DNA of 64,000 nucleotides, taken from a phage. Position 1 is the first letter of the stretch. The number at the start of each line of letters is the position of its first letter. This document shows positions 3,118-27,249 of the stretch, piece after piece. Under the pieces are notes generated by a model that searched no databases, had not been told where the DNA came from, and saw nothing but the letters and a program-made list of their open reading frames with translations. Made by a program: the position numbers and the translations under genes. The stretch is from NCBI GenBank assembly GCA_036252695.1, contig GCA_036252695.1_4122.1; one strand, written 5' to 3'.

Positions 3118-3254
3118 TATTTGTGCAAATAAAAAGCAATGTGACTTTTCCTTGATATAGGTCAAGAGAAATAACCTGTTCTGACGCTATAATGTTGTCT
3201 GGTGATATTAAATATCTTCACCCCCAGATGATTTCAAAATACAAGGAATGTACA

Positions 3255-5060
3255 ATGCAATTAGATAAATTATATACCGATGTAACAAATTTCCTAAATC
3301 AGAGTAATACTGATCTTACTAATGAAAACGCTAATAAAGATGCAAAATGCGTCAATACACATAGAGATTTACTAGCAGGTATTCTATCTAAGCATTATTC
3401 ACAAGATGTTATTCCCACCGAGTTAATGCAATGGCATAATGATGGATATGGTCATATTCATGATTTAGATTACTATATTAGCCCATTGACCAATTGTTGC
3501 TTGGTTAACTATCCTGATATGCTTAAAAACGGCTTCACTATTGGTTGTGCTAAAATTGAAGAACCAAAAAGTTTCAGTGTAGCTTGCACAGTACTGACAC
3601 AAATTGTCCAAGCTGTTGCCAGTTCCCAGTACGGTGGACAATCGTTGGCTCATATTGACGTTGGTCTTGAACCTTACGTCCAAAAGTCATGGGATAAGCT
3701 GTTAGAAAAACAAAAGAAATATAATCTAAGTGATGAGTTCATTGAAGAAGAATTACGAAAAGAAGTATACGATGGATGTCAAACATTACTTTACCAGACT
3801 AATTCAATGATTAGCACTAATGGACAAGCTGCATTCATTTCTCTTAGTTTAGGGCTTAATACTTCTAAATTTGGTAAATTAATCACTGAACAGTACTTAA
3901 AAGTTCATGAGAATGGTTTAGGTAAAGATAAGATTACTCCAGTGTTTCCTAAAGTAATTTTCTTTTTACAAGATGGTATAAACATGAATACCAATGATAG
4001 TAATTATGACCTTAAACAGTTAGCTATGCGTTGTGCATCAAAACGAATCTACCCAGACTTTGTTTCAGTTCCATTAAATCACAAAGTGACTGGAAGTAGT
4101 AGTACTGCTGTAACACCGATGGGCTGTCGTTCATTCTTAGGAAAATGGGAAGATTCAAATGGAAATGAACAATACAACGGTCGTTTCAATTTAGGCGTAG
4201 TTTCTATCAATTTACCTCTAATTGCTCTTGAGAGTGCTTCTGATGGAGAGTTTTTTGATAAGATAGACGAGCACATGAATATTGCATATCGTGCTCAGAT
4301 GAACCGTGTGGAGCGTTTAAAAGGCACTAAAGCGAAGCAGAATCCAATTTTGTTCATGGAAGGTGCATTAGCACGTTTAGGTGCAGAAGAAACCATTGAC
4401 AAGCTATTTTACAATGGTTATGCTAGTATTAGTATTGGTTATGTTGGTCTTGTTGAATGTTCAGAAATCCTCACTGGTTCTATCAGTAAGGAGTTTTGTA
4501 TGTCAGTACTGAATTATATGAAAGTAAAATGTGATGAGTTCAAAAAAGAAAGTAATATTGCTTTTAGTCTATATGGAACTCCAGCAGAGTCGCTTTGTTA
4601 TAAATTTGCACGTTGCATTGAAGCAAAATATCCTTCAGTACTAAAACGTGATTACATCACAAATTCCTTCCATCAACCAGTATGGGTAGAAAGTTCTCCA
4701 TTTGATAAATGGAGTTATGAAGAAGGGTTTGCTTACCTAAGTAACGGTGGAAACATCAGTTATGTTGAATCTCCAAACTTAGCAAACAACATTCAAGCAC
4801 TTGAAACATTAGTTAACTATGCGTACACTAAGATACCATATTTTGGTATTAACCAACCAGTTGACCATTGTTATGAATGTGGCTTCCAGGGTGAGTTCAG
4901 TGTAGATAAACATGGTTTCCACTGTCCGGTATGTGATAATCGTAATGAGAAGACAATCTCAGTGATTCGTCGTGTTTCTGGTTACTTGGGTAATCCTTCT
5001 TCGCGTGGATTCAATAAAGGCAAACAACAAGAGTGTTGTGAGCGTATTCAGCACAAATAA
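3255..5060 (+). CDS. nrdD: anaerobic ribonucleoside-triphosphate reductase (class III RNR)
   Basis: Collinear similarity to T4 NrdD (NENANKD near N-terminus, PMGCRSF, C-terminal glycine-radical motif RRVSGYLG, CxxC zinc ribbon). ORF track starts at 3192; ATG at 3255 has an AAGGAA RBS and matches the T4 N-terminus. Confidence 0.9.
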   Translation: MQLDKLYTDVTNFLNQSNTDLTNENANKDAKCVNTHRDLLAGILSKHYSQDVIPTELMQWHNDGYGHIHDLDYYISPLTNCCLVNYPDMLKNGFTIGCAKIEEPKSFSVACTVLTQIVQAVASSQYGGQSLAHIDVGLEPYVQKSWDKLLEKQKKYNLSDEFIEEELRKEVYDGCQTLLYQTNSMISTNGQAAFISLSLGLNTSKFGKLITEQYLKVHENGLGKDKITPVFPKVIFFLQDGINMNTNDSNYDLKQLAMRCASKRIYPDFVSVPLNHKVTGSSSTAVTPMGCRSFLGKWEDSNGNEQYNGRFNLGVVSINLPLIALESASDGEFFDKIDEHMNIAYRAQMNRVERLKGTKAKQNPILFMEGALARLGAEETIDKLFYNGYASISIGYVGLVECSEILTGSISKEFCMSVLNYMKVKCDEFKKESNIAFSLYGTPAESLCYKFARCIEAKYPSVLKRDYITNSFHQPVWVESSPFDKWSYEEGFAYLSNGGNISYVESPNLANNIQALETLVNYAYTKIPYFGINQPVDHCYECGFQGEFSVDKHGFHCPVCDNRNEKTISVIRRVSGYLGNPSSRGFNKGKQQECCERIQHK

Positions 5061-13631: not shown

Positions 13632-14033
13632 ATGACTACAGTTGATGATATCTATAGCACTATACGCAATATGAGTACAGATAGAAAAGTATTTGGCGAT
13701 AAAGAAAAATCTAAGTGTTATGGTATTGATTCTTTTGATATAATTTCTTATGAGTACAATACAAGTGGAAATAGTTCACTGAATATCGTCTGTCCTCGTG
13801 ATCCAGAAAATAATTTTATGTATGTTGAAATTAATAATGATGGAATGTTTTTTACAAAAGTTTTCAAAGGTGGAATTAATTACGAACCTATTGAATGTAT
13901 GAATGAAGAAACTTTCTTTCAAGAAGATACAATTATCAATTTAGGTTTTAGTTTTGATGATTATAAAACATTAGAACATGACTTTAATCGTTATTATAAT
14001 GGTTTCTTAAAGGAGTTAACAATTTATCTATGA
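13632..14033 (+). CDS. hypothetical protein
   Basis: 133-aa ORF; stop overlaps start of next gene. Confidence 0.5.
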   Translation: MTTVDDIYSTIRNMSTDRKVFGDKEKSKCYGIDSFDIISYEYNTSGNSSLNIVCPRDPENNFMYVEINNDGMFFTKVFKGGINYEPIECMNEETFFQEDTIINLGFSFDDYKTLEHDFNRYYNGFLKELTIYL

Positions 14034-16306
14034 ATAACCAATATATTGAACAAACAATAGTGAAACACTTGGCTGGGTCACAAGCCTACGGAACCAGTAC
14101 ACCTGAAAGTGATACTGATTATCGTGGTATTTTTCTTGCTAATAAAGAATTTATTCTTACACCCTTCTATAAGGTCAAAGAGGTAGCTGATAAAAGCGAA
14201 GAAGATACTAAATTCTATGAGTTGAATCAGTATTTAAAATTATACACTGAAGCTAACCCTAATATTCTTGAATCACTTTGGGTTGAACCTGAACACATTG
14301 TTGAAAGTACTGAAATTTATGACTATCTTCGTTCATTTAACCAAAAACTTCTTAGTTCCAAGATTGCATTTTCATATACTGGTTATGCATATAATCAGAT
14401 TAAGCGTATGACAAATCATCACGGTTGGATGGATAAAGAGCATATTGCTGAACGTAAACTAAATGAAATTTTAGAAGAACATCCAGTCGATGAGGTTCTT
14501 GCGTGGATGTATGATTCATTTCCACAATATCTTGTTGAACGTTTAGATACATCGAACTTACATCCATTTAATGCTAAAAAGATTGATTTTGAAAAATATA
14601 TGCGTGATACGTCATTGCAGTTAGTTTCGAAAAATCCATTAAAGCAATATCATTTTGTAAGATTAGTGCATAACTACACTACTGATAAAATTCTAGATCG
14701 TGATTTCAATTTATTGAATTTTAATAATGGCTATGAACTAATTCATTACGGAGAAAACATTTTTGCGATTATTAAAAATCCGAATGAAAGTACTATCAAT
14801 GCTGATGGTTCACTACGTTACTTCAATAAAGAACGTACTTCGGAAGAATTAAAAGTTCGTCCTGAACTCATTGTAAAATTCAATGAAAAGGAATACAAAG
14901 AAAATAGTGAGAACCGTAAGAGTTATCACAAATGGAAGCAGAACCGTAATGCCAAACGTGCTATTCTTGAATCACACCACGGTTATGACTGTTATAGTTT
15001 TGATACTGAATTCTTAACTAAAGATGGTTGGAAGTTATTTGATGATATTACTGAAAACGATCTATTAGCTACTTTTGACAAAAATCACAAAGTTGAATAT
15101 CAGAAATACACTGAACGTTTTGATAATTTATATAATGGCAATCTATACCATTTCACTGGTCATCACCAAGATACTTTAGTGACTGCTAACCACCGAATGT
15201 ATGTTAAGGATTATGCACGAAATCAACAAAAAGATATGTCTGATTGGAAATTTGTAGAAGCAGCACAATTAAAAGAAACATATAAAATTTTGAATACAAT
15301 ATCCCCAATAACTAAAGAACACAAAGATAAAAAAAGTCCAATTGACTACATGGATATCAAAGTTTATCTTCAACTCATGGGATGGTTTATTTCAGATGGG
15401 TGCATAAATTTCAGGGATGGTAAAGTAAAATCTTTATATATTTCCCAGTCAAAAACTAGTCAAGGTATGCGTTGTGCTTTATCAAAATACAAAAAATCTG
15501 GTCAATTAATGTTTAATGAATACATTATAGAAAAGAAAGATTATCAAGCTAATGACGAATCAAGATATACATTCCCAAGTGAAGTAGCTGAAGCATTATA
15601 TAATGATTGTGGACATGGTTCATATAATAAACGAATTCCAAATTGGGTATTTGATTTAACAAAACGTAAAATGGATTTCCTTCTGAAAGGTTTGTTACAA
15701 GGGGATGGAACAAAACGAAATTTAGTTAATGACAATGATACATTTGTATATTATACTGCCAATTCATTATTAGCTGATGATGTTCAAAAACTAGCATTAC
15801 TATGTGGTTATGAAACATCAAAATGGGGACCATACACAAACGAAACCAATTTTGGTAGTGTTGATATATATCAAATTCATATCAATATGAAACCCAAAAC
15901 CGAAAAAATGAACATGAAACAAAATCTTGAAAAAATTCCAGTTACTAATTACAGAACTGTGTGTTTTTCTGTTCCCAACGGAACACTCATTACTCGTAGA
16001 AATGGAAAAACCGCATTACATGGAAATTGCAAACATGCTATGCATACAATCAGGCTGCTGAATACAGCCGAGGAAGCACTTGAAACTGGTATCATCCAAG
16101 TTCACCGACCGGATGCTGCTATGTTGATGGACATTCGTAACGGGAAGTGGTTGTATCAAGAAGTTATGGATTATTTCAACGAAAAGGTTGACTACATCCG
16201 AAATGTGGCGTATCATAAAACTCATCTACCGAAGCGACCGAACATAAAGTTGGCGACAAAGGTACTATTAGATATCCGTGAAATGCAATGGTACAGTAAA
16301 AAATAA
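14030..16306 (+). CDS. Pol-beta superfamily nucleotidyltransferase interrupted by an in-frame intein
   Basis: N-terminal GS...G....SDxD motif (GSQAYGTSTPESDTDYRGIF); residues 321-666 carry intein blocks and LAGLIDADG motifs; flanking extein reads GYD|CKHAMH. Confidence 0.7.
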   Translation: MNNQYIEQTIVKHLAGSQAYGTSTPESDTDYRGIFLANKEFILTPFYKVKEVADKSEEDTKFYELNQYLKLYTEANPNILESLWVEPEHIVESTEIYDYLRSFNQKLLSSKIAFSYTGYAYNQIKRMTNHHGWMDKEHIAERKLNEILEEHPVDEVLAWMYDSFPQYLVERLDTSNLHPFNAKKIDFEKYMRDTSLQLVSKNPLKQYHFVRLVHNYTTDKILDRDFNLLNFNNGYELIHYGENIFAIIKNPNESTINADGSLRYFNKERTSEELKVRPELIVKFNEKEYKENSENRKSYHKWKQNRNAKRAILESHHGYDCYSFDTEFLTKDGWKLFDDITENDLLATFDKNHKVEYQKYTERFDNLYNGNLYHFTGHHQDTLVTANHRMYVKDYARNQQKDMSDWKFVEAAQLKETYKILNTISPITKEHKDKKSPIDYMDIKVYLQLMGWFISDGCINFRDGKVKSLYISQSKTSQGMRCALSKYKKSGQLMFNEYIIEKKDYQANDESRYTFPSEVAEALYNDCGHGSYNKRIPNWVFDLTKRKMDFLLKGLLQGDGTKRNLVNDNDTFVYYTANSLLADDVQKLALLCGYETSKWGPYTNETNFGSVDIYQIHINMKPKTEKMNMKQNLEKIPVTNYRTVCFSVPNGTLITRRNGKTALHGNCKHAMHTIRLLNTAEEALETGIIQVHRPDAAMLMDIRNGKWLYQEVMDYFNEKVDYIRNVAYHKTHLPKRPNIKLATKVLLDIREMQWYSKK
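14990..16027 (+). mobile_element. intein with LAGLIDADG homing-endonuclease domain (346 aa, in-frame)
   Basis: Starts with Cys (CYSFDTEFLTKDGWK, block A), TxxH block B (DTLVTANH), two LAGLIDADG-like motifs (LMGWFISDG, LKGLLQGDG), ends ...ALHGN followed by extein Cys. Confidence 0.6.
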
Positions 16307-20333: not shown

Positions 20334-20774
20334 ATGGAAGATATTAATGATTTACGACACGTAATGGACTTTATCGGAAGTACTGAAGAAGATAATTCAT
20401 ATGATGAAGTACTATTAACTTTTATTGAAAATAGTTTGTTTTTAAGTTCTGCTGCACATAACTGGCACTTACAATGTCATTTTTATACAAAGCATTTACA
20501 ATTAGATGAACTATATAAAGAATTACCAGAATATGTAGACGCATTTGTTGAAGGTATCATGAATAATCGTGGTGCTTTGCAAGTTGGGACTGGTAATAGT
20601 TATCGTTTTACACCAATTGAAGATTGTGTACCAATTCTTGAAGAATATGTTGAGCAATGCAGAGCAATTCATGATATGCTTGAAGAATCGGGTGATTACG
20701 GCAGTGTAAACACATTAGAAGATATTATGAGTTTTGTTGAAGGAACACTTTACAAACTTAAAGTTTTACAATAA
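20334..20774 (+). CDS. hypothetical protein
   Basis: GGAGAG RBS; acidic 146-aa product. Confidence 0.5.
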   Translation: MEDINDLRHVMDFIGSTEEDNSYDEVLLTFIENSLFLSSAAHNWHLQCHFYTKHLQLDELYKELPEYVDAFVEGIMNNRGALQVGTGNSYRFTPIEDCVPILEEYVEQCRAIHDMLEESGDYGSVNTLEDIMSFVEGTLYKLKVLQ

Positions 20775-25357: not shown

Positions 25358-25768
25358 ATGATTGAAATGGAAGGAACTCTGGTGTATGATCCAGAACGTG
25401 GCACTATGAAAAAGAAGAAGGACTTCTGGTTAGTACTACAACTTCCATTACAGTTGGTTCGATACTACCAGTACTTCATCAGAACTGACTTACATATTGA
25501 TATTAAAGACCCACAATGGGGAGCACATGTCAGTATCGTTCGTGGTGAAGTGCCACCAAATCCAGAGTACTGGAAAAAGTACGATGGAATGAAAGTAAAG
25601 ATAAAGTTCAATCCTTGTATTGAGATAGTAAAAGATAAAAAGAATCCAGGTTCATTCTTTATCATTGAATTTGAAGATGATTTCATCACACATATTAGAA
25701 ATGAACTAGGACTACCAACCAAGTACTTTAAATATCACATCACTGTAGGTAGAACCTACTACGATTAA
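25358..25768 (+). CDS. 2H phosphoesterase superfamily protein (LigT/cyclic phosphodiesterase-like; possible Acb1-like anti-CBASS nuclease)
   Basis: Two H-x-(S/T)-x motifs (AHVSIV and YHITVG) about 70 residues apart in a ~136-aa protein, the hallmark of the 2H fold. Confidence 0.55.
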   Translation: MIEMEGTLVYDPERGTMKKKKDFWLVLQLPLQLVRYYQYFIRTDLHIDIKDPQWGAHVSIVRGEVPPNPEYWKKYDGMKVKIKFNPCIEIVKDKKNPGSFFIIEFEDDFITHIRNELGLPTKYFKYHITVGRTYYD

Positions 25769-25903: not shown

Positions 25904-26863
25904 TTGCCCATCTTAACAATCAACAAAGGAGGCGTTTTGAAACAAGCGAAAAAAGCACTGAAAACTAAGACTACTTATGGTGTTCTAGTTTGCACAGTAC
26001 TTGTCGCTGCGATTGGATTTTATGGTTTTTCTCAAAATGATCGTGTATCATCATCGGACGAAAGTCAGGTACACAATTTAAAACCACAAGTTACGCAAAT
26101 TCAAAAGCAGGAATTACCAAAGGTAGAAATATCAAAGGATGTTCCACGCGGCGAGAAGCATTATACGGTTCAACCTGGTGATAGTTATTATTCTATTGCT
26201 AAAAAGTTTAAACCTAAAAATGTACAACTTGAAGAGTATGTTATTTTGTTGAAAAATATCAATTTAAATGCTACTCTTCATACTTCTCAGGGTATCTTTA
26301 TCCCAACAAAAGAGGATTTGAAGAACGTATTGTTACCAGATGTGACTGTACTGTTTGATTATAATGATCCAGAAATTGTCAATCACATCAAAGAAGCTGA
26401 AGGTTCAATTGAATTTCAGTCCAAGAACAAACGCCGTTTACTTGGTGGGAAAGTCGGAGTTCCTTTCCACAATTCTAAATTTCATCCCTACAAGGACATG
26501 AAAGGTAATTATACAATAGGTTATGGGCATTATTTGGGTAGAAAAGAATCTGATGCGATTAAGTACAGAAACGGTATTACCAAAGCTCAAGCCAATAAAC
26601 TTTTAATGCAAGATATGAAAAGAACATATAATGACTTTTTATTATTGATGCAGAAAAAAGAAGCAGTAAATCTGACCAAAGAACAACAACGTATTCTTTA
26701 TGAAATGTCCTATACAATGGGTGTTGATAAATTAGCAACGTTTAATAAACTTTGGAAAAGTGTGAAAAATGATAACCCTAAGAAATTTAAAAAAGAAATT
26801 ATGAATTCCTTATGGTATCGTCAAGTTACAAACCGAGCAGATTTGTTGTTAAGTTCACTCTAA
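25904..26863 (+). CDS. LysM-domain lysozyme (T4 e-like, GH24) with N-terminal transmembrane anchor; start codon uncertain (TTG)
   Basis: C-terminal half matches T4 lysozyme (YKDxxGxYTIGxGH, WYxQxxNRA); LysM motif YTVQPGDSYYSIAKKF; hydrophobic helix near N-terminus; no in-frame ATG before the domain, strong AAAGGAGG at 25925-25932. Confidence 0.75.
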   Translation: MPILTINKGGVLKQAKKALKTKTTYGVLVCTVLVAAIGFYGFSQNDRVSSSDESQVHNLKPQVTQIQKQELPKVEISKDVPRGEKHYTVQPGDSYYSIAKKFKPKNVQLEEYVILLKNINLNATLHTSQGIFIPTKEDLKNVLLPDVTVLFDYNDPEIVNHIKEAEGSIEFQSKNKRRLLGGKVGVPFHNSKFHPYKDMKGNYTIGYGHYLGRKESDAIKYRNGITKAQANKLLMQDMKRTYNDFLLLMQKKEAVNLTKEQQRILYEMSYTMGVDKLATFNKLWKSVKNDNPKKFKKEIMNSLWYRQVTNRADLLLSSL

Positions 26864-26880
26864 AAAAAGGAAGGTGAAGT

Positions 26881-27213
26881 ATGCTAAATCTAAATATCCA
26901 AGGCAACGTTGATATCACTCCAGCAATCCAAGATGCTATTTACAATGAAGCAAAAAGTCTGGATAAGTACCGTACTTCTTCAGTACTAGACATTGGTGTT
27001 CATGTTAAGAAAGAGCATAAAACTCAATATGCTGTAACTTTAACTGCTGGTAGTAAATCAGTAACTGCTGATGATGCTGATTTGTATAAAGCAATTGTTG
27101 AATCTTTTGATAAGATGGAAACTGTATTCAGTAAAGACAAAAGCATTAAATTACACCGCCGAAACCATCCAGAACACCCAGTTCTTGATGATTTGACAGA
27201 AAACGAAGAGTAA
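26881..27213 (+). CDS. hpf: ribosome hibernation-promoting factor (HPF/YfiA/RaiA family)
   Basis: Alignable along its length with E. coli HPF (MLNLNIQGNVDIT.. versus MQLNITGNNVEIT..; DLYKAI versus DMYAAI); AAGGAAGG RBS. Confidence 0.65.
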   Translation: MLNLNIQGNVDITPAIQDAIYNEAKSLDKYRTSSVLDIGVHVKKEHKTQYAVTLTAGSKSVTADDADLYKAIVESFDKMETVFSKDKSIKLHRRNHPEHPVLDDLTENEE

Positions 27214-27224
27214 TATATACTAAA

Positions 27225-27249
27225 GGGACAGATTAATTCTGTCCCTTTT
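27225..27249 (+). terminator. rho-independent terminator
   Basis: GGGACAGA / CTGTCCC hairpin plus T-run. Confidence 0.5.

What the first reader, a model, noticed from the sequence alone, without database searches (positions are those of the whole stretch)
26881..27213. Phage-encoded ribosome hibernation factor (HPF/RaiA family)
The 110-aa product aligns along its length with bacterial HPF/YfiA, which binds the 30S subunit and silences ribosomes. Carried by a lytic phage, it may modulate host translation or protect ribosomes during takeover. It sits within ~6 kb of a CCA-adding enzyme and a possible Pth2-like hydrolase, hinting at a translation-maintenance theme.
Basis: partly seen in the sequence, partly recalled or inferred. 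Interest (0 to 1): 0.6.

Follow-up and report, generated by a model that had tools for sequence, protein, structure and literature searches.

The report
Jumbo-phage ribosome hibernation factor homologue
A 110-residue gene of a giant E. coli phage really does encode a relative of the bacterial proteins that park idle ribosomes, but it is already annotated and published as such, and what it does during infection has never been tested.

Summary
ORF 26881..27213 (+) encodes a 110-aa protein that matches Pfam PF02482 (Ribosomal_S30AE, HPF/RaiA) above the curated threshold. Its predicted fold is beta-alpha-beta-beta-beta-alpha, and its 38 best PDB matches are all HPF/YfiA/pY.

The window is 100% identical to Escherichia phages vB_EcoM_G17 and Sharanji (Asteriusvirus, 350-370 kb, lytic). 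RefSeq already calls the orthologues "HPF/RaiA family ribosome-associated protein". The Sharanji genome paper lists this exact protein. Mizuno et al. 2019 reported phage HPFs, including the positional orthologue in Cronobacter phage GAP32.

What I add:
- The gene is an old, syntenic, purifying-selected core gene of this jumbo-phage clade, not a recent host capture.
- It belongs to neither E. coli subtype by sequence, but its architecture is RaiA-like: a single domain plus a 23-residue tail.
- The tail motif (K/R-R ... D-L-T-E-D-E-E) is conserved even where the core has diverged almost beyond recognition.
- The folded core, but not the tail, is exchanged by recombination between near-identical genomes.
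- The neighbourhood is enriched in RNA and translation maintenance genes: 2H phosphoesterase, CCA-adding enzyme, Nudix, macro, and a Pth2-like fold that I confirmed.

Ribosome binding and biological role remain untested. Novelty: already known. Interest: about 0.3.

The parts
26868..26877 (+). Shine-Dalgarno-like sequence AGGAAGGTGA, 3-6 nt upstream of the ATG. Only 17 nt separate the upstream lysozyme stop (26863) from the start, so co-transcription with the lysozyme gene is likely.
   Evidence: Read directly from the sequence and the ORF list.
26881..27213 (+). CDS of the 110-aa HPF/RaiA-family protein. It equals G17_00389 and Sharanji gp425 (WNN14706.1).
26881..27141 (+). Codons 1-87: the folded S30AE/HPF domain (beta-alpha-beta-beta-beta-alpha). 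It carries the family hallmark D67-L-Y69-x-A71-I72 and the helix-2 lysines K78, K85 and K87.
   Evidence: Pfam span 5-87; AF2 secondary structure; Foldseek; alignment with E. coli HPF and RaiA.
27142..27210 (+). Codons 88-110: a predicted-disordered C-terminal tail. It has a conserved basic patch (K90, R93, R94, N95) and a conserved acidic end, D-L-T-E-(N/D)-E-E.
   Evidence: pLDDT below 50. Conservation across the clade down to about 30% identity, and in GAP32. The tail is under as much constraint as the core.
26860..27119 (+). Recombination patch. The HPF core is 73-83% identical to phAPEC6 at the DNA level, while the flanks and the tail-coding part are 98-100% identical.
   Evidence: Allele distribution is incongruent with flank similarity.
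27222..27248 (+). Hairpin AAAGGGACAG-ATTAATT-CTGTCCCTTT just after the stop codon, probably an intrinsic terminator that closes the lysozyme-HPF unit.
   Evidence: Annotated as a terminator in G17. A terminator is annotated at the same place in Salmonella phage Munch.
25358..25768 (+). Context: 2H phosphoesterase-like protein with two H-x-T/S motifs (HVSIV, HITVG).
   Evidence: PF22547 2H-SAK, E=1.4e-5, 25.8 bits against a cut-off of 27. The same family is marked at the syntenic position in L006.
25904..26863 (+). Context: LysM plus phage lysozyme, immediately upstream. Databases annotate the start at 25937.
   Evidence: PF00959 E=1.6e-11 and LysM. The phAPEC6 orthologue gp293 was not detected in virions.
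28813..29925 (+). Context: CCA-adding enzyme (tRNA nucleotidyltransferase).
   Evidence: PF01743 E=7e-19 and PF12627 E=6e-8.
30033..30434 (+). Context: Nudix hydrolase.
   Evidence: PF00293 E=1e-12.
31264..31740 (+). Context: macro-domain protein. The G17 record annotates it as Poa1p-like.
   Evidence: PF01661 is only E=0.009, below threshold.
32081..32458 (+). Context: protein with a Pth2-like (peptidyl-tRNA hydrolase 2) fold.
   Evidence: 16 of 30 family members hit PF01981, best E=5.6e-7. AF2 pLDDT is 82. The top 14 Foldseek PDB hits are all Pth2/Bit1.

Best explanation
The gene encodes a single-domain member of the HPF/RaiA (S30AE) family.

Most likely mechanism (inferred). The protein binds vacant host 30S/70S ribosomes in the mRNA/tRNA channel, across the A and P sites, as its bacterial relatives do. 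Its architecture is that of RaiA (YfiA): a core domain plus a short C-terminal extension, with no dimerisation domain. It would therefore hold idle ribosomes as intact 70S monomers rather than build 100S dimers. The conserved basic-then-acidic tail would reach toward the RMF/anti-Shine-Dalgarno region and exclude RMF.

Likely role in the infected cell (inferred). This would keep the pool of idle ribosomes intact and quickly reusable during the infection. That fits a neighbourhood devoted to RNA and translation maintenance.

Shown here:
- family membership and fold;
- the tail and its conservation;
- purifying selection;
- conserved synteny;
- absence of the phAPEC6 orthologue from the published virion proteome.

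Inferred, not shown:
- ribosome binding;
- the binding site;
- RMF exclusion;
- the benefit to the phage.
For: Family and fold:
- Pfam PF02482 at 41 bits against a cut-off of 23.7.
- Top 38 PDB structural neighbours are all HPF/YfiA/pY.
- The predicted topology is b-a-b-b-b-a.

Contact residues named in cryo-EM work (bioRxiv 10.1101/2025.10.07.680626) are mostly kept, going by my reading of the alignments:
- E. coli K80, K87 and K89 correspond to K78, K85 and K87. All three are invariant in the close family.
- Y30 corresponds to Y/F30.
- Q29 corresponds to the invariant K29.
- D75 corresponds to E/D74.
- R83 is replaced by T81. T. thermophilus HPF, which is solved on the ribosome, has the same 'LET' (alignment).

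RaiA-like architecture:
- The protein is 110 aa against 113 for RaiA and 95 for HPF.
- Its tail has an RR patch and an acidic end (...RRNHPEHPVLDDLTENEE). RaiA ends ...[20 protein letters not shown].
- The RaiA tail is reported to head toward the RMF site and to block RMF binding.

Tail conservation: it persists through Munch, Hallingskeid, metagenomic jumbo contigs and GAP32, although it is predicted to be disordered.

Selection and age:
- dN/dS is 0.11-0.27 for pairs that are not saturated.
- GC content is 35.1% for the gene against 34.6% for the window.
- The same gene order is found in relatives with only 30-46% identical HPF.

The phAPEC6 orthologue gp292c is not among the 62 virion proteins found by MS, so the protein probably acts as an intracellular product.

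Neighbours: 2H phosphoesterase, CCA-adding enzyme, Nudix, macro, Pth2-like fold and an RlaP-like enzyme.
Against: - There is no biochemical evidence for this family.
- The only phage HPF tested, from rV5, was expressed but absent from salt-washed 70S/100S ribosomes and had no effect on 100S (PMC6375957). It belongs to a different, host-like lineage.
- The protein scores below the curated cut-off of every NCBIfam HPF/RaiA model: TIGR00741 36.3 against 40.9, HPF 23 against 125, RaiA 19 against 158.
- Several beta-sheet contact positions differ from E. coli HPF: T53 to A/S/T, H55 to T, E60 to S/G, H62 to S. The arginine that contacts m4C1402 is absent.
- The gene is internally deleted or truncated in the Salmonella SD-* phages, so it is dispensable at least there.
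- Expression timing is unknown.
Confidence: 0.5

Rival explanations
1. Anti-hibernation decoy. The protein competes with host HPF, RaiA and RMF on ribosomes of slow-growing or stationary cells but dissociates easily. Hibernating ribosomes are thereby freed for phage mRNAs. This is the proposal of Mizuno et al. 2019.
For: It was proposed in PMC6375957. A weakly bound factor would explain why rV5 HPF was lost from salt-washed ribosomes. The RaiA-like tail predicts exclusion of RMF. The phage protein lacks some host-type contact residues, including R83, which could lower its affinity.
Against: It shares its physical first step with the best explanation and cannot be told apart from it by sequence. 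No data exist on affinity or on infection of stationary-phase cells. T. thermophilus HPF also lacks the R83 equivalent and still binds stably.
Confidence: 0.2
2. Host shut-off factor. The protein is made to silence host ribosomes or host translation initiation, and phage messages escape by some other phage-encoded means, for example the phage IF3 homologue.
For: [quoted passage not shown] The Sharanji paper speculates that phage translation factors may mediate ribosome takeover.
Against: HPF-family proteins occupy the channel that every mRNA and tRNA needs, so nothing in the protein suggests selectivity for host messages. The gene sits among maintenance and repair functions next to the late structural block, not in an obvious early takeover cluster. 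The protein is not injected with the virion.
Confidence: 0.1
3. The fold has been kept but ribosome binding has been lost. The protein uses its dsRBD-like alpha/beta surface and its acidic tail for another RNA or protein partner, for instance within the neighbouring RNA-repair set.
For: The rV5 HPF binding result was negative. The core is very divergent within the clade: GAP32 against this protein gives BLASTP E=0.035. The core is freely swapped by recombination while the tail is fixed. Beyond the HPF hits, the weaker Foldseek neighbours are dsRNA-binding modules of DCL4 and Drosha/DGCR8, at E about 0.01.
Against: The helix-2 lysines that contact 16S rRNA in every solved complex are invariant in the close family. 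The D-x-Y-x-A-I hallmark is kept. Purifying selection acts on the core as well as the tail.
Confidence: 0.15
4. A dodecin-like flavin-binding protein or a sigma-54 regulator. Several GenBank records label the gene 'putative sigma 54' or 'sigma factor'.
For: Pfam Dodecin gives E=0.0012 at 19.5 bits. The record labels are listed.
Against: The dodecin hit is below its cut-off of 22.5 bits and covers only residues 12-55. No dodecin appears among the structural neighbours. 'Sigma 54 modulation protein' is the historical name of PF02482, which I attribute (from my own knowledge) to the position of hpf next to rpoN (gene order seen). The labels 'sigma factor' and 'sigma 54' are truncations of that name, not evidence.
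Confidence: 0.02

Closest known systems
E. coli RaiA (YfiA, protein Y), 113 aa
   Same: Both are a single S30AE domain followed by a roughly 23-residue extension. In both, the extension has an Arg-Arg patch and a strongly acidic C-terminus. The two proteins are almost the same length, and neither has a dimerisation domain. The expected consequence is the same: 70S monomers and exclusion of RMF.
   Different: Identity is only 25%. The RaiA equivalog model NF007654 scores 19 bits against a cut-off of 158. The tail sequences cannot be aligned residue by residue. R83 is replaced by Thr.
E. coli short HPF (YhbH), 95 aa, which works with RMF to form 100S
   Same: The fold is the same: rmsd 1.7 A over 90 columns against 6h4n_x. 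Identity is 28%. K80, K87, K89 and Y30 are conserved.
   Different: Short HPF ends right after helix 2, whereas the phage protein has a conserved 23-residue tail. NF007780 scores 23 bits against a cut-off of 125.
N-terminal domain of long HPFs (T. thermophilus, B. subtilis, Listeria, S. aureus)
   Same: These are the best sequence matches in the PDB (Tth 33.5 bits, Bsu 27.9 bits) and the best Foldseek hits (Listeria 8uu7_w). They share the 'D-[KR]-[LM]-E-T' form of helix 2.
   Different: Long HPFs carry a C-terminal dimerisation domain that makes 100S. The phage protein has none, being 110 aa in total.
Cronobacter phage GAP32 gp183 (AFC21633), the HPF reported by Mizuno et al. 2019
   Same: It is the positional orthologue: lysozyme, then HPF, then CCA enzyme, Nudix and glutaredoxin, then macro, neck and sheath. 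It is the same size (111 aa) and has the same basic-plus-acidic tail ending ...STEDNEE.
   Different: The core sequence is almost unalignable by BLASTP (E=0.035).
rV5-like (Vequintavirinae) phage HPF, 105 aa, tested experimentally
   Same: It is a phage-encoded PF02482 protein in a large lytic E. coli phage.
   Different: It is a separate, host-like lineage, 42-44% identical to E. coli HPF, and falls in another PHROG (phrog_8990 rather than phrog_34864). The jumbo-phage family is not retrieved with E. coli HPF or RaiA as query.

Membership tests
HPF/RaiA superfamily (Pfam PF02482 Ribosomal_S30AE) | Profile match above the curated gathering threshold | tested here: met
   41 bits against 23.7, E=3.3e-10, nearly full profile coverage at positions 2-84 of 88.
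HPF/RaiA superfamily (Pfam PF02482 Ribosomal_S30AE) | beta-alpha-beta-beta-beta-alpha fold | tested here: met
   AF2 elements are E2-8, H14-30, E36-44, E50-56, E59-65 and H68-86. Foldseek ranks 1-38 are all HPF/YfiA/pY.
HPF/RaiA superfamily (Pfam PF02482 Ribosomal_S30AE) | Conserved rRNA-contacting basic residues of helix 2 (E. coli K80, R83, K87, K89, K91) and the D-M-Y-x-A-I motif | tested here: inconclusive
   K78, K85 and K87 are invariant, K90 is shifted by one position, and the DLYKAI motif is kept. R83 is replaced by T81, as in ribosome-bound T. thermophilus HPF.
HPF/RaiA superfamily (Pfam PF02482 Ribosomal_S30AE) | Binds the 30S decoding channel and inhibits translation | not testable with these tools
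   This needs biochemistry or cryo-EM. The only phage HPF tested (rV5, another lineage) did not co-purify with ribosomes.
NCBIfam TIGR00741 (HPF/YfiA family, typed 'equivalog' in NCBIfam) | Score at or above the curated cut-off | tested here: not met
   36.3 bits against a cut-off of 40.9.
RaiA/YfiA subtype | Single domain plus a C-terminal extension beyond helix 2, with no dimerisation domain | tested here: met
   A 23-residue tail with a conserved basic patch and an acidic end; total length 110 against 113 aa.
RaiA/YfiA subtype | Sequence-level equivalog (NF007654) | tested here: not met
   19.3 bits against a cut-off of 158.
RaiA/YfiA subtype | Blocks RMF binding and 100S formation | not testable with these tools
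   Inferred only from the tail architecture.
Short HPF (YhbH) subtype | About 95 aa, ending just after helix 2; equivalog NF007780 | tested here: not met
   A conserved tail is present. The model scores 23.2 bits against a cut-off of 125.
Long HPF subtype | C-terminal dimerisation domain after a linker (about 180-190 aa in total) | tested here: not met
   The protein is 110 aa, no second domain is predicted, and Pfam finds no other domain.
Pth2 (PF01981), for the neighbouring ORF 32081..32458 | Profile match and Pth2 fold | tested here: inconclusive
   The window protein alone gives E=0.18. However, 16 of 30 homologues match, best E=5.6e-7, and the top 14 structural neighbours are all Pth2/Bit1. 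Catalytic residues were not verified.

The most novel reading that the evidence does not exclude
The protein may not be a translation silencer. It may instead be a ribosome shield within a conserved jumbo-phage island for RNA damage control. That island comprises RNA ligase in relatives, 2H phosphoesterase, CCA-adding enzyme, a Pth2-like protein, macro, Nudix and an RlaP-like enzyme. Under this reading, the protein covers the decoding centre and 16S 3' region of idle ribosomes against host ribotoxins and RNases triggered by infection. Its clade-wide conserved acidic C-terminal motif (D-L-T-E-D-E-E) would be a short linear motif for a specific partner or site, for example the RMF/anti-SD pocket. 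The recombinational swapping of core alleles would reflect an arms race with host factors.
Probability: 0.15. Interest if true: 0.7.

Novelty: already known. Interest (0 to 1): 0.3.

Why it matters
Phage-encoded hibernation-factor homologues have been catalogued since 2019, but none has a demonstrated function. The single experiment, on rV5 HPF, was negative. This jumbo-phage family is a reasonable candidate for settling the question. It is old, under purifying selection, and fixed in a syntenic block with tRNA/RNA maintenance genes. It also carries a conserved tail motif that gives a clean handle for mutagenesis. If the protein does bind ribosomes, that would show that large lytic phages actively manage the state of idle host ribosomes. 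As a genome-scan finding, however, it is an ordinary and already annotated gene.

Tried and rejected
- **Recent capture from the host: rejected.** Identity to E. coli HPF and RaiA is 24-28%. The nearest non-phage relative among 1.84 billion cluster representatives is a Photobacterium RaiA at 29%, E=5e-4. GC content equals that of the phage. Synteny is conserved across genera.
- **Virion-packaged, injected factor: rejected as unlikely.** The phAPEC6 orthologue gp292c is absent from the virion proteome.
- **Dodecin or sigma-54 readings: rejected**.
- **Net charge as a discriminator: uninformative.** The phage protein has pI 5.5, but E. coli RaiA (6.2) and HPF (6.5) are also acidic.
- **T4-type late promoter TATAAATA: not useful.** It is depleted in the window, with 2 matches against 10.5 expected, so it gives no information on timing. 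Sigma-70-like matches are at chance level: 48 found against 52 expected.
- **IMG/VR scan with the family alignment:** returned a single contig of 348,532 bp, the same length as the 121Q genome record. The broader alignment A5 had no stretch conserved enough to scan with.
- **Structure prediction of the Pth2-like ORF with locus-derived homologues:** A profile search of PDB sequences found nothing. A homologue search was used to build the alignment instead.
- **Polikanov 2012 by PMC id:** not held.
- **One literature search was too broad to be useful**.

Full report
**1. The observation**

It starts with ATG and encodes 110 codons plus a stop. An AGGAAGGTGA Shine-Dalgarno-like sequence ends 3 nt before the ATG. 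The upstream lysozyme ORF stops only 17 nt earlier. A strong hairpin (27222-27248) follows the stop codon. The G17 GenBank record annotates that hairpin as a terminator of -14.7 kcal/mol.

The product matches Pfam PF02482 (Ribosomal_S30AE, "sigma 54 modulation protein"). The match has E=3.3e-10 and 41 bits, above the gathering score of 23.7. It spans residues 5-87 and profile positions 2-84 of 88.

phmmer against PDB sequences finds only hibernation factors at the top: T. thermophilus HPF at 4.9e-7, B. subtilis HPF at 2.8e-5 and E. coli HPF at 5e-3.

An AlphaFold2 model built on 13 family sequences has mean pLDDT 75. Residues 88-110 have low confidence.

Foldseek against the PDB returns HPF/YfiA/pY-type factors at ranks 1-38. 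E. coli HPF 6h4n_x gives rmsd 1.7 A and TM 0.79.

**2. Where the window comes from, and what is already known**

The 4 kb around the gene is 100% identical to Escherichia phages vB_EcoM_G17 (370.8 kb) and Sharanji (350 kb). Both belong to the genus Asteriusvirus, the 121Q/PBECO4 group.

The protein is 100% identical in 11 phage records. RefSeq annotates the 121Q and PBECO4 orthologues as "HPF/RaiA family ribosome-associated protein". Other records say "ribosome-associated inhibitor A" or "ribosome hibernation promoting factor". Some use the truncated, misleading labels "putative sigma 54" or "sigma factor".

The Sharanji genome paper lists this exact protein (WNN14706.1) among the phage's translation-related genes. 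It describes the phage as lytic (PMC11895373).

Mizuno et al. 2019 (PMC6375957) reported PF02482 proteins in seven cultivated phages. These include the jumbo Cronobacter phage GAP32 and six rV5-like coliphages. They expressed rV5 HPF in E. coli and did not find it in salt-washed 70S/100S fractions. They saw no change in 100S. They proposed that viral HPFs might compete with host factors.

As an annotation, then, the finding is not new. The function remains untested.

**3. What kind of HPF it is**

The protein is 24-28% identical to both E. coli paralogues. It scores far below the curated cut-offs of both subtype models. HPF NF007780 gives 23 bits against 125, and RaiA NF007654 gives 19 against 158. 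It is also slightly below the general TIGR00741 cut-off, at 36.3 against 40.9.

Its best sequence matches are N-terminal domains of long HPFs from Thermus and Bacillus. It shares with them the D-[KR]-[LM]-E-T version of helix 2.

I mapped the ribosome contacts described for Gram-negative HPF and YfiA (bioRxiv 10.1101/2025.10.07.680626) onto the alignments:
- K80, K87 and K89 correspond to K78, K85 and K87, all invariant in the close family.
- Y30 is Y/F30.
- Q29 is the invariant K29.
- D75 is E/D74.
- The D-x-Y-x-A-I hallmark is intact.
- R83, the m4C1402 contact, is Thr. It is also Thr in T. thermophilus HPF, which is solved on the ribosome.
- Several beta3/beta4 contact positions differ.

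The rRNA-binding face is therefore largely, though not wholly, preserved.

**4. The tail**

In architecture the protein is RaiA-like. It has a single domain, no dimerisation domain, and a 23-residue extension, for a total of 110 aa against 113 for RaiA and 95 for short HPF.

The extension carries a basic patch (K90, R93, R94) and an acidic end...DDLTENEE. RaiA ends ...[20 protein letters not shown].

AlphaFold predicts the tail to be disordered. Even so, it is conserved in several distant relatives:
- Salmonella phage Munch: ...AKRHQKIDLTESDE.
- Erwinia phage Hallingskeid: ...SKRNQPVHFDLTEDNE.
- A metagenomic jumbo contig with only about 33% identity: ...SKRHEKIQLTDTEE.

It is also conserved in GAP32 gp183 (...GKRTNINRDVDVSTEDNEE). 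That protein's core is barely alignable with this one, with BLASTP E=0.035.

Non-synonymous divergence in the tail is no higher than in the core.

The RaiA tail is reported to run toward the RMF site and to prevent RMF binding. The phage tail is the feature most likely to define what this protein does beyond occupying the channel.

**5. Evolution**

The close family is small. There are 14-16 clusters at 90% identity among 5.8 billion sequences, nearly all on contigs of jumbo-phage size.

A search of 1.84 billion cluster representatives finds four further small proteins of 103-107 aa. At least two of them lie on contigs of 258-351 kb. It also finds a Photobacterium RaiA at 29% identity, E=5e-4.

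Gene order is conserved in Hallingskeid, Munch, GAP32 and two metagenomic contigs:
- (RNA ligase ... 2H phosphoesterase ...) lysozyme;
- HPF, then small ORFs;
- CCA-adding enzyme, Nudix, glutaredoxin;
- macro, then a protein of about 107 aa, then the Pth2-like protein;
- neck, dNMP kinase, sheath.

Pairwise dN/dS is 0.11-0.27 where dS is not saturated. The gene's GC content (35.1%) matches the window (34.6%).

The gene is therefore an ancient, vertically kept, selected component of this clade. It is not a recent capture from the host.

It is not indispensable everywhere. The Salmonella SD-* phages carry internally deleted or truncated copies.

**6. A recombination patch**

Against phAPEC6, the DNA on both sides is 98-100% identical. 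The part encoding the HPF core (about 26860-27119) is only 73-83% identical. The tail-coding part is 100% identical.

Within the patch, pS is 0.52 and pN is 0.10. This is an old allele moved by recombination, not rapid positive selection.

Allele distribution disagrees with flank similarity. Phage ph0011 is 86.6% identical over the 4 kb but has a 99% identical HPF. Phage 121Q is 97.8% identical over the 4 kb but has an 83.6% identical HPF.

Whether this is ordinary phage mosaicism or reflects selection on the core is open.

**7. Context**

- 28813..29925 is a CCA-adding enzyme (PF01743 and PF12627).
- 32081..32458 by itself matches PTH2 only at E=0.18. However, 16 of 30 homologues match, best 5.6e-7. 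Its model has pLDDT 82, and its top 14 PDB neighbours are all Pth2/Bit1. I did not verify catalytic residues.

Further related genes lie nearby:
- A 2H phosphoesterase-like protein at 25358..25768, at 25.8 bits against a cut-off of 27, with two H-x-T/S motifs.
- A Nudix hydrolase and a glutaredoxin.
- A macro-domain protein at 31264..31740, weak in Pfam and annotated as Poa1p-like in G17.
- An RlaP-family "RNA repair pathway" nucleotidyltransferase with a LAGLIDADG insertion at 14030..16306.

There is no tRNA gene in the window. The phAPEC6 orthologue is absent from the 62-protein virion proteome.

**8. Mechanism**

The best-supported account is a RaiA-type factor. It would bind vacant 30S/70S in the decoding channel and hold them as 70S monomers. 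Its tail would exclude RMF. Idle ribosomes would then stay intact and reusable during infection, alongside neighbouring functions that maintain tRNAs and RNA ends.

Family, fold, tail, selection and synteny are shown. Binding, binding site, RMF exclusion and benefit to the phage are inferred. I put about 0.5 on this.

The rivals are:
- an easily displaced anti-hibernation decoy (0.2), which shares the same first step;
- a protein that keeps the fold but has lost ribosome binding (0.15);
- a host shut-off factor (0.1);
- the dodecin or sigma-54 labels (about 0.02).

**9. Verdict**

The function is unproven. Novelty is "already known". Interest is modest at 0.3. It rests mainly on the open question of what phage hibernation-factor homologues do, and on the conserved tail motif as an experimental handle.

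Noticed in passing
window 26860-27119 (and 27780-27899): These are sharply bounded divergent patches (72-83% DNA identity) in a region that is otherwise 98-100% identical to phage phAPEC6. The first patch covers exactly the HPF folded core but not its tail. HPF allele distribution among Asteriusviruses is incongruent with flank similarity, which indicates allele exchange by recombination.
   Followed up: partly
window 27142-27210; L013 5995-6315; L004 6001-6315; L006 8001-8321; L017 6383-6718: A C-terminal motif is conserved across the whole jumbo-phage clade, including GAP32, whose core is nearly unalignable. The motif is a basic K/R-R patch, a short linker, then D-L-T-E-D-E-E. It is predicted to be disordered and resembles the basic-then-acidic tail of E. 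coli RaiA.
   Followed up: partly
window 32081-32458: A 125-aa protein annotated everywhere as hypothetical has a Pth2 (archaeal/eukaryotic-type peptidyl-tRNA hydrolase) fold. 16 of 30 homologues hit PF01981, and the top 14 Foldseek PDB hits are Pth2/Bit1. Catalytic residues were not checked.
   Followed up: yes
window 25358-25768, 30033-30434, 31264-31740: A 2H phosphoesterase-like protein, a Nudix hydrolase and a Poa1p-like macro domain lie in one conserved block with a CCA-adding enzyme. In relatives the block also holds an RNA ligase. Together they resemble the enzymes that process ADP-ribose-1''-phosphate by-products of 2'-phosphotransferase-type RNA ligation (from my own knowledge of that pathway, not tested here). 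No Tpt1/KptA gene was looked for.
   Followed up: no
window 14030-16306: A 758-aa ORF has an N-terminal RlaP domain (RNA repair pathway, DNA polymerase beta family nucleotidyltransferase; E=9e-15) and an internal LAGLIDADG-like segment. This may be an intein or a homing-endonuclease insertion.
   Followed up: no
Salmonella phages SD-15_S21, SD-2_S15, SD-1_S14, SD-6_S16 (hits H59, H60, H62, H63): The HPF gene is internally deleted (74 aa, lacking residues of about 22-57) or truncated in these 310-326 kb phages. The gene is therefore dispensable or decaying in that lineage.
   Followed up: no
window 27267-27662, 27852-28268, 28255-28677: Three tandem ORFs just downstream of HPF are paralogues (E=9e-12 and E=0.003). 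They share a C-terminal G-T-L-P...F-I-[ED]-D-T-F-G-I-D motif and have no Pfam match.
   Followed up: partly
phage records listed (A4, UB, 121Q GenBank, Ecwhy_1, fEgEco12): The gene is labelled 'putative sigma 54', 'putative sigma' or 'putative sigma factor'. These are truncations of the historical Pfam name, so they are propagated mis-annotations.
   Followed up: yes
window 3192-5060 and 20334-20774: There is an anaerobic ribonucleotide reductase NrdD (E=2e-166) and a DUF5856/ferritin-like protein (E=2e-28). These are ordinary jumbo-phage metabolic genes, noted only for orientation.
   Followed up: no
phage collection: About 18 records named 'Campylobacter phage' (135-141 kb) carry an HPF matching E. 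coli HPF at the same identity (43-44%) as that of rV5-like coliphages. Their size and this match suggest that they are rV5-like phages rather than typical Campylobacter phages.
   Followed up: no
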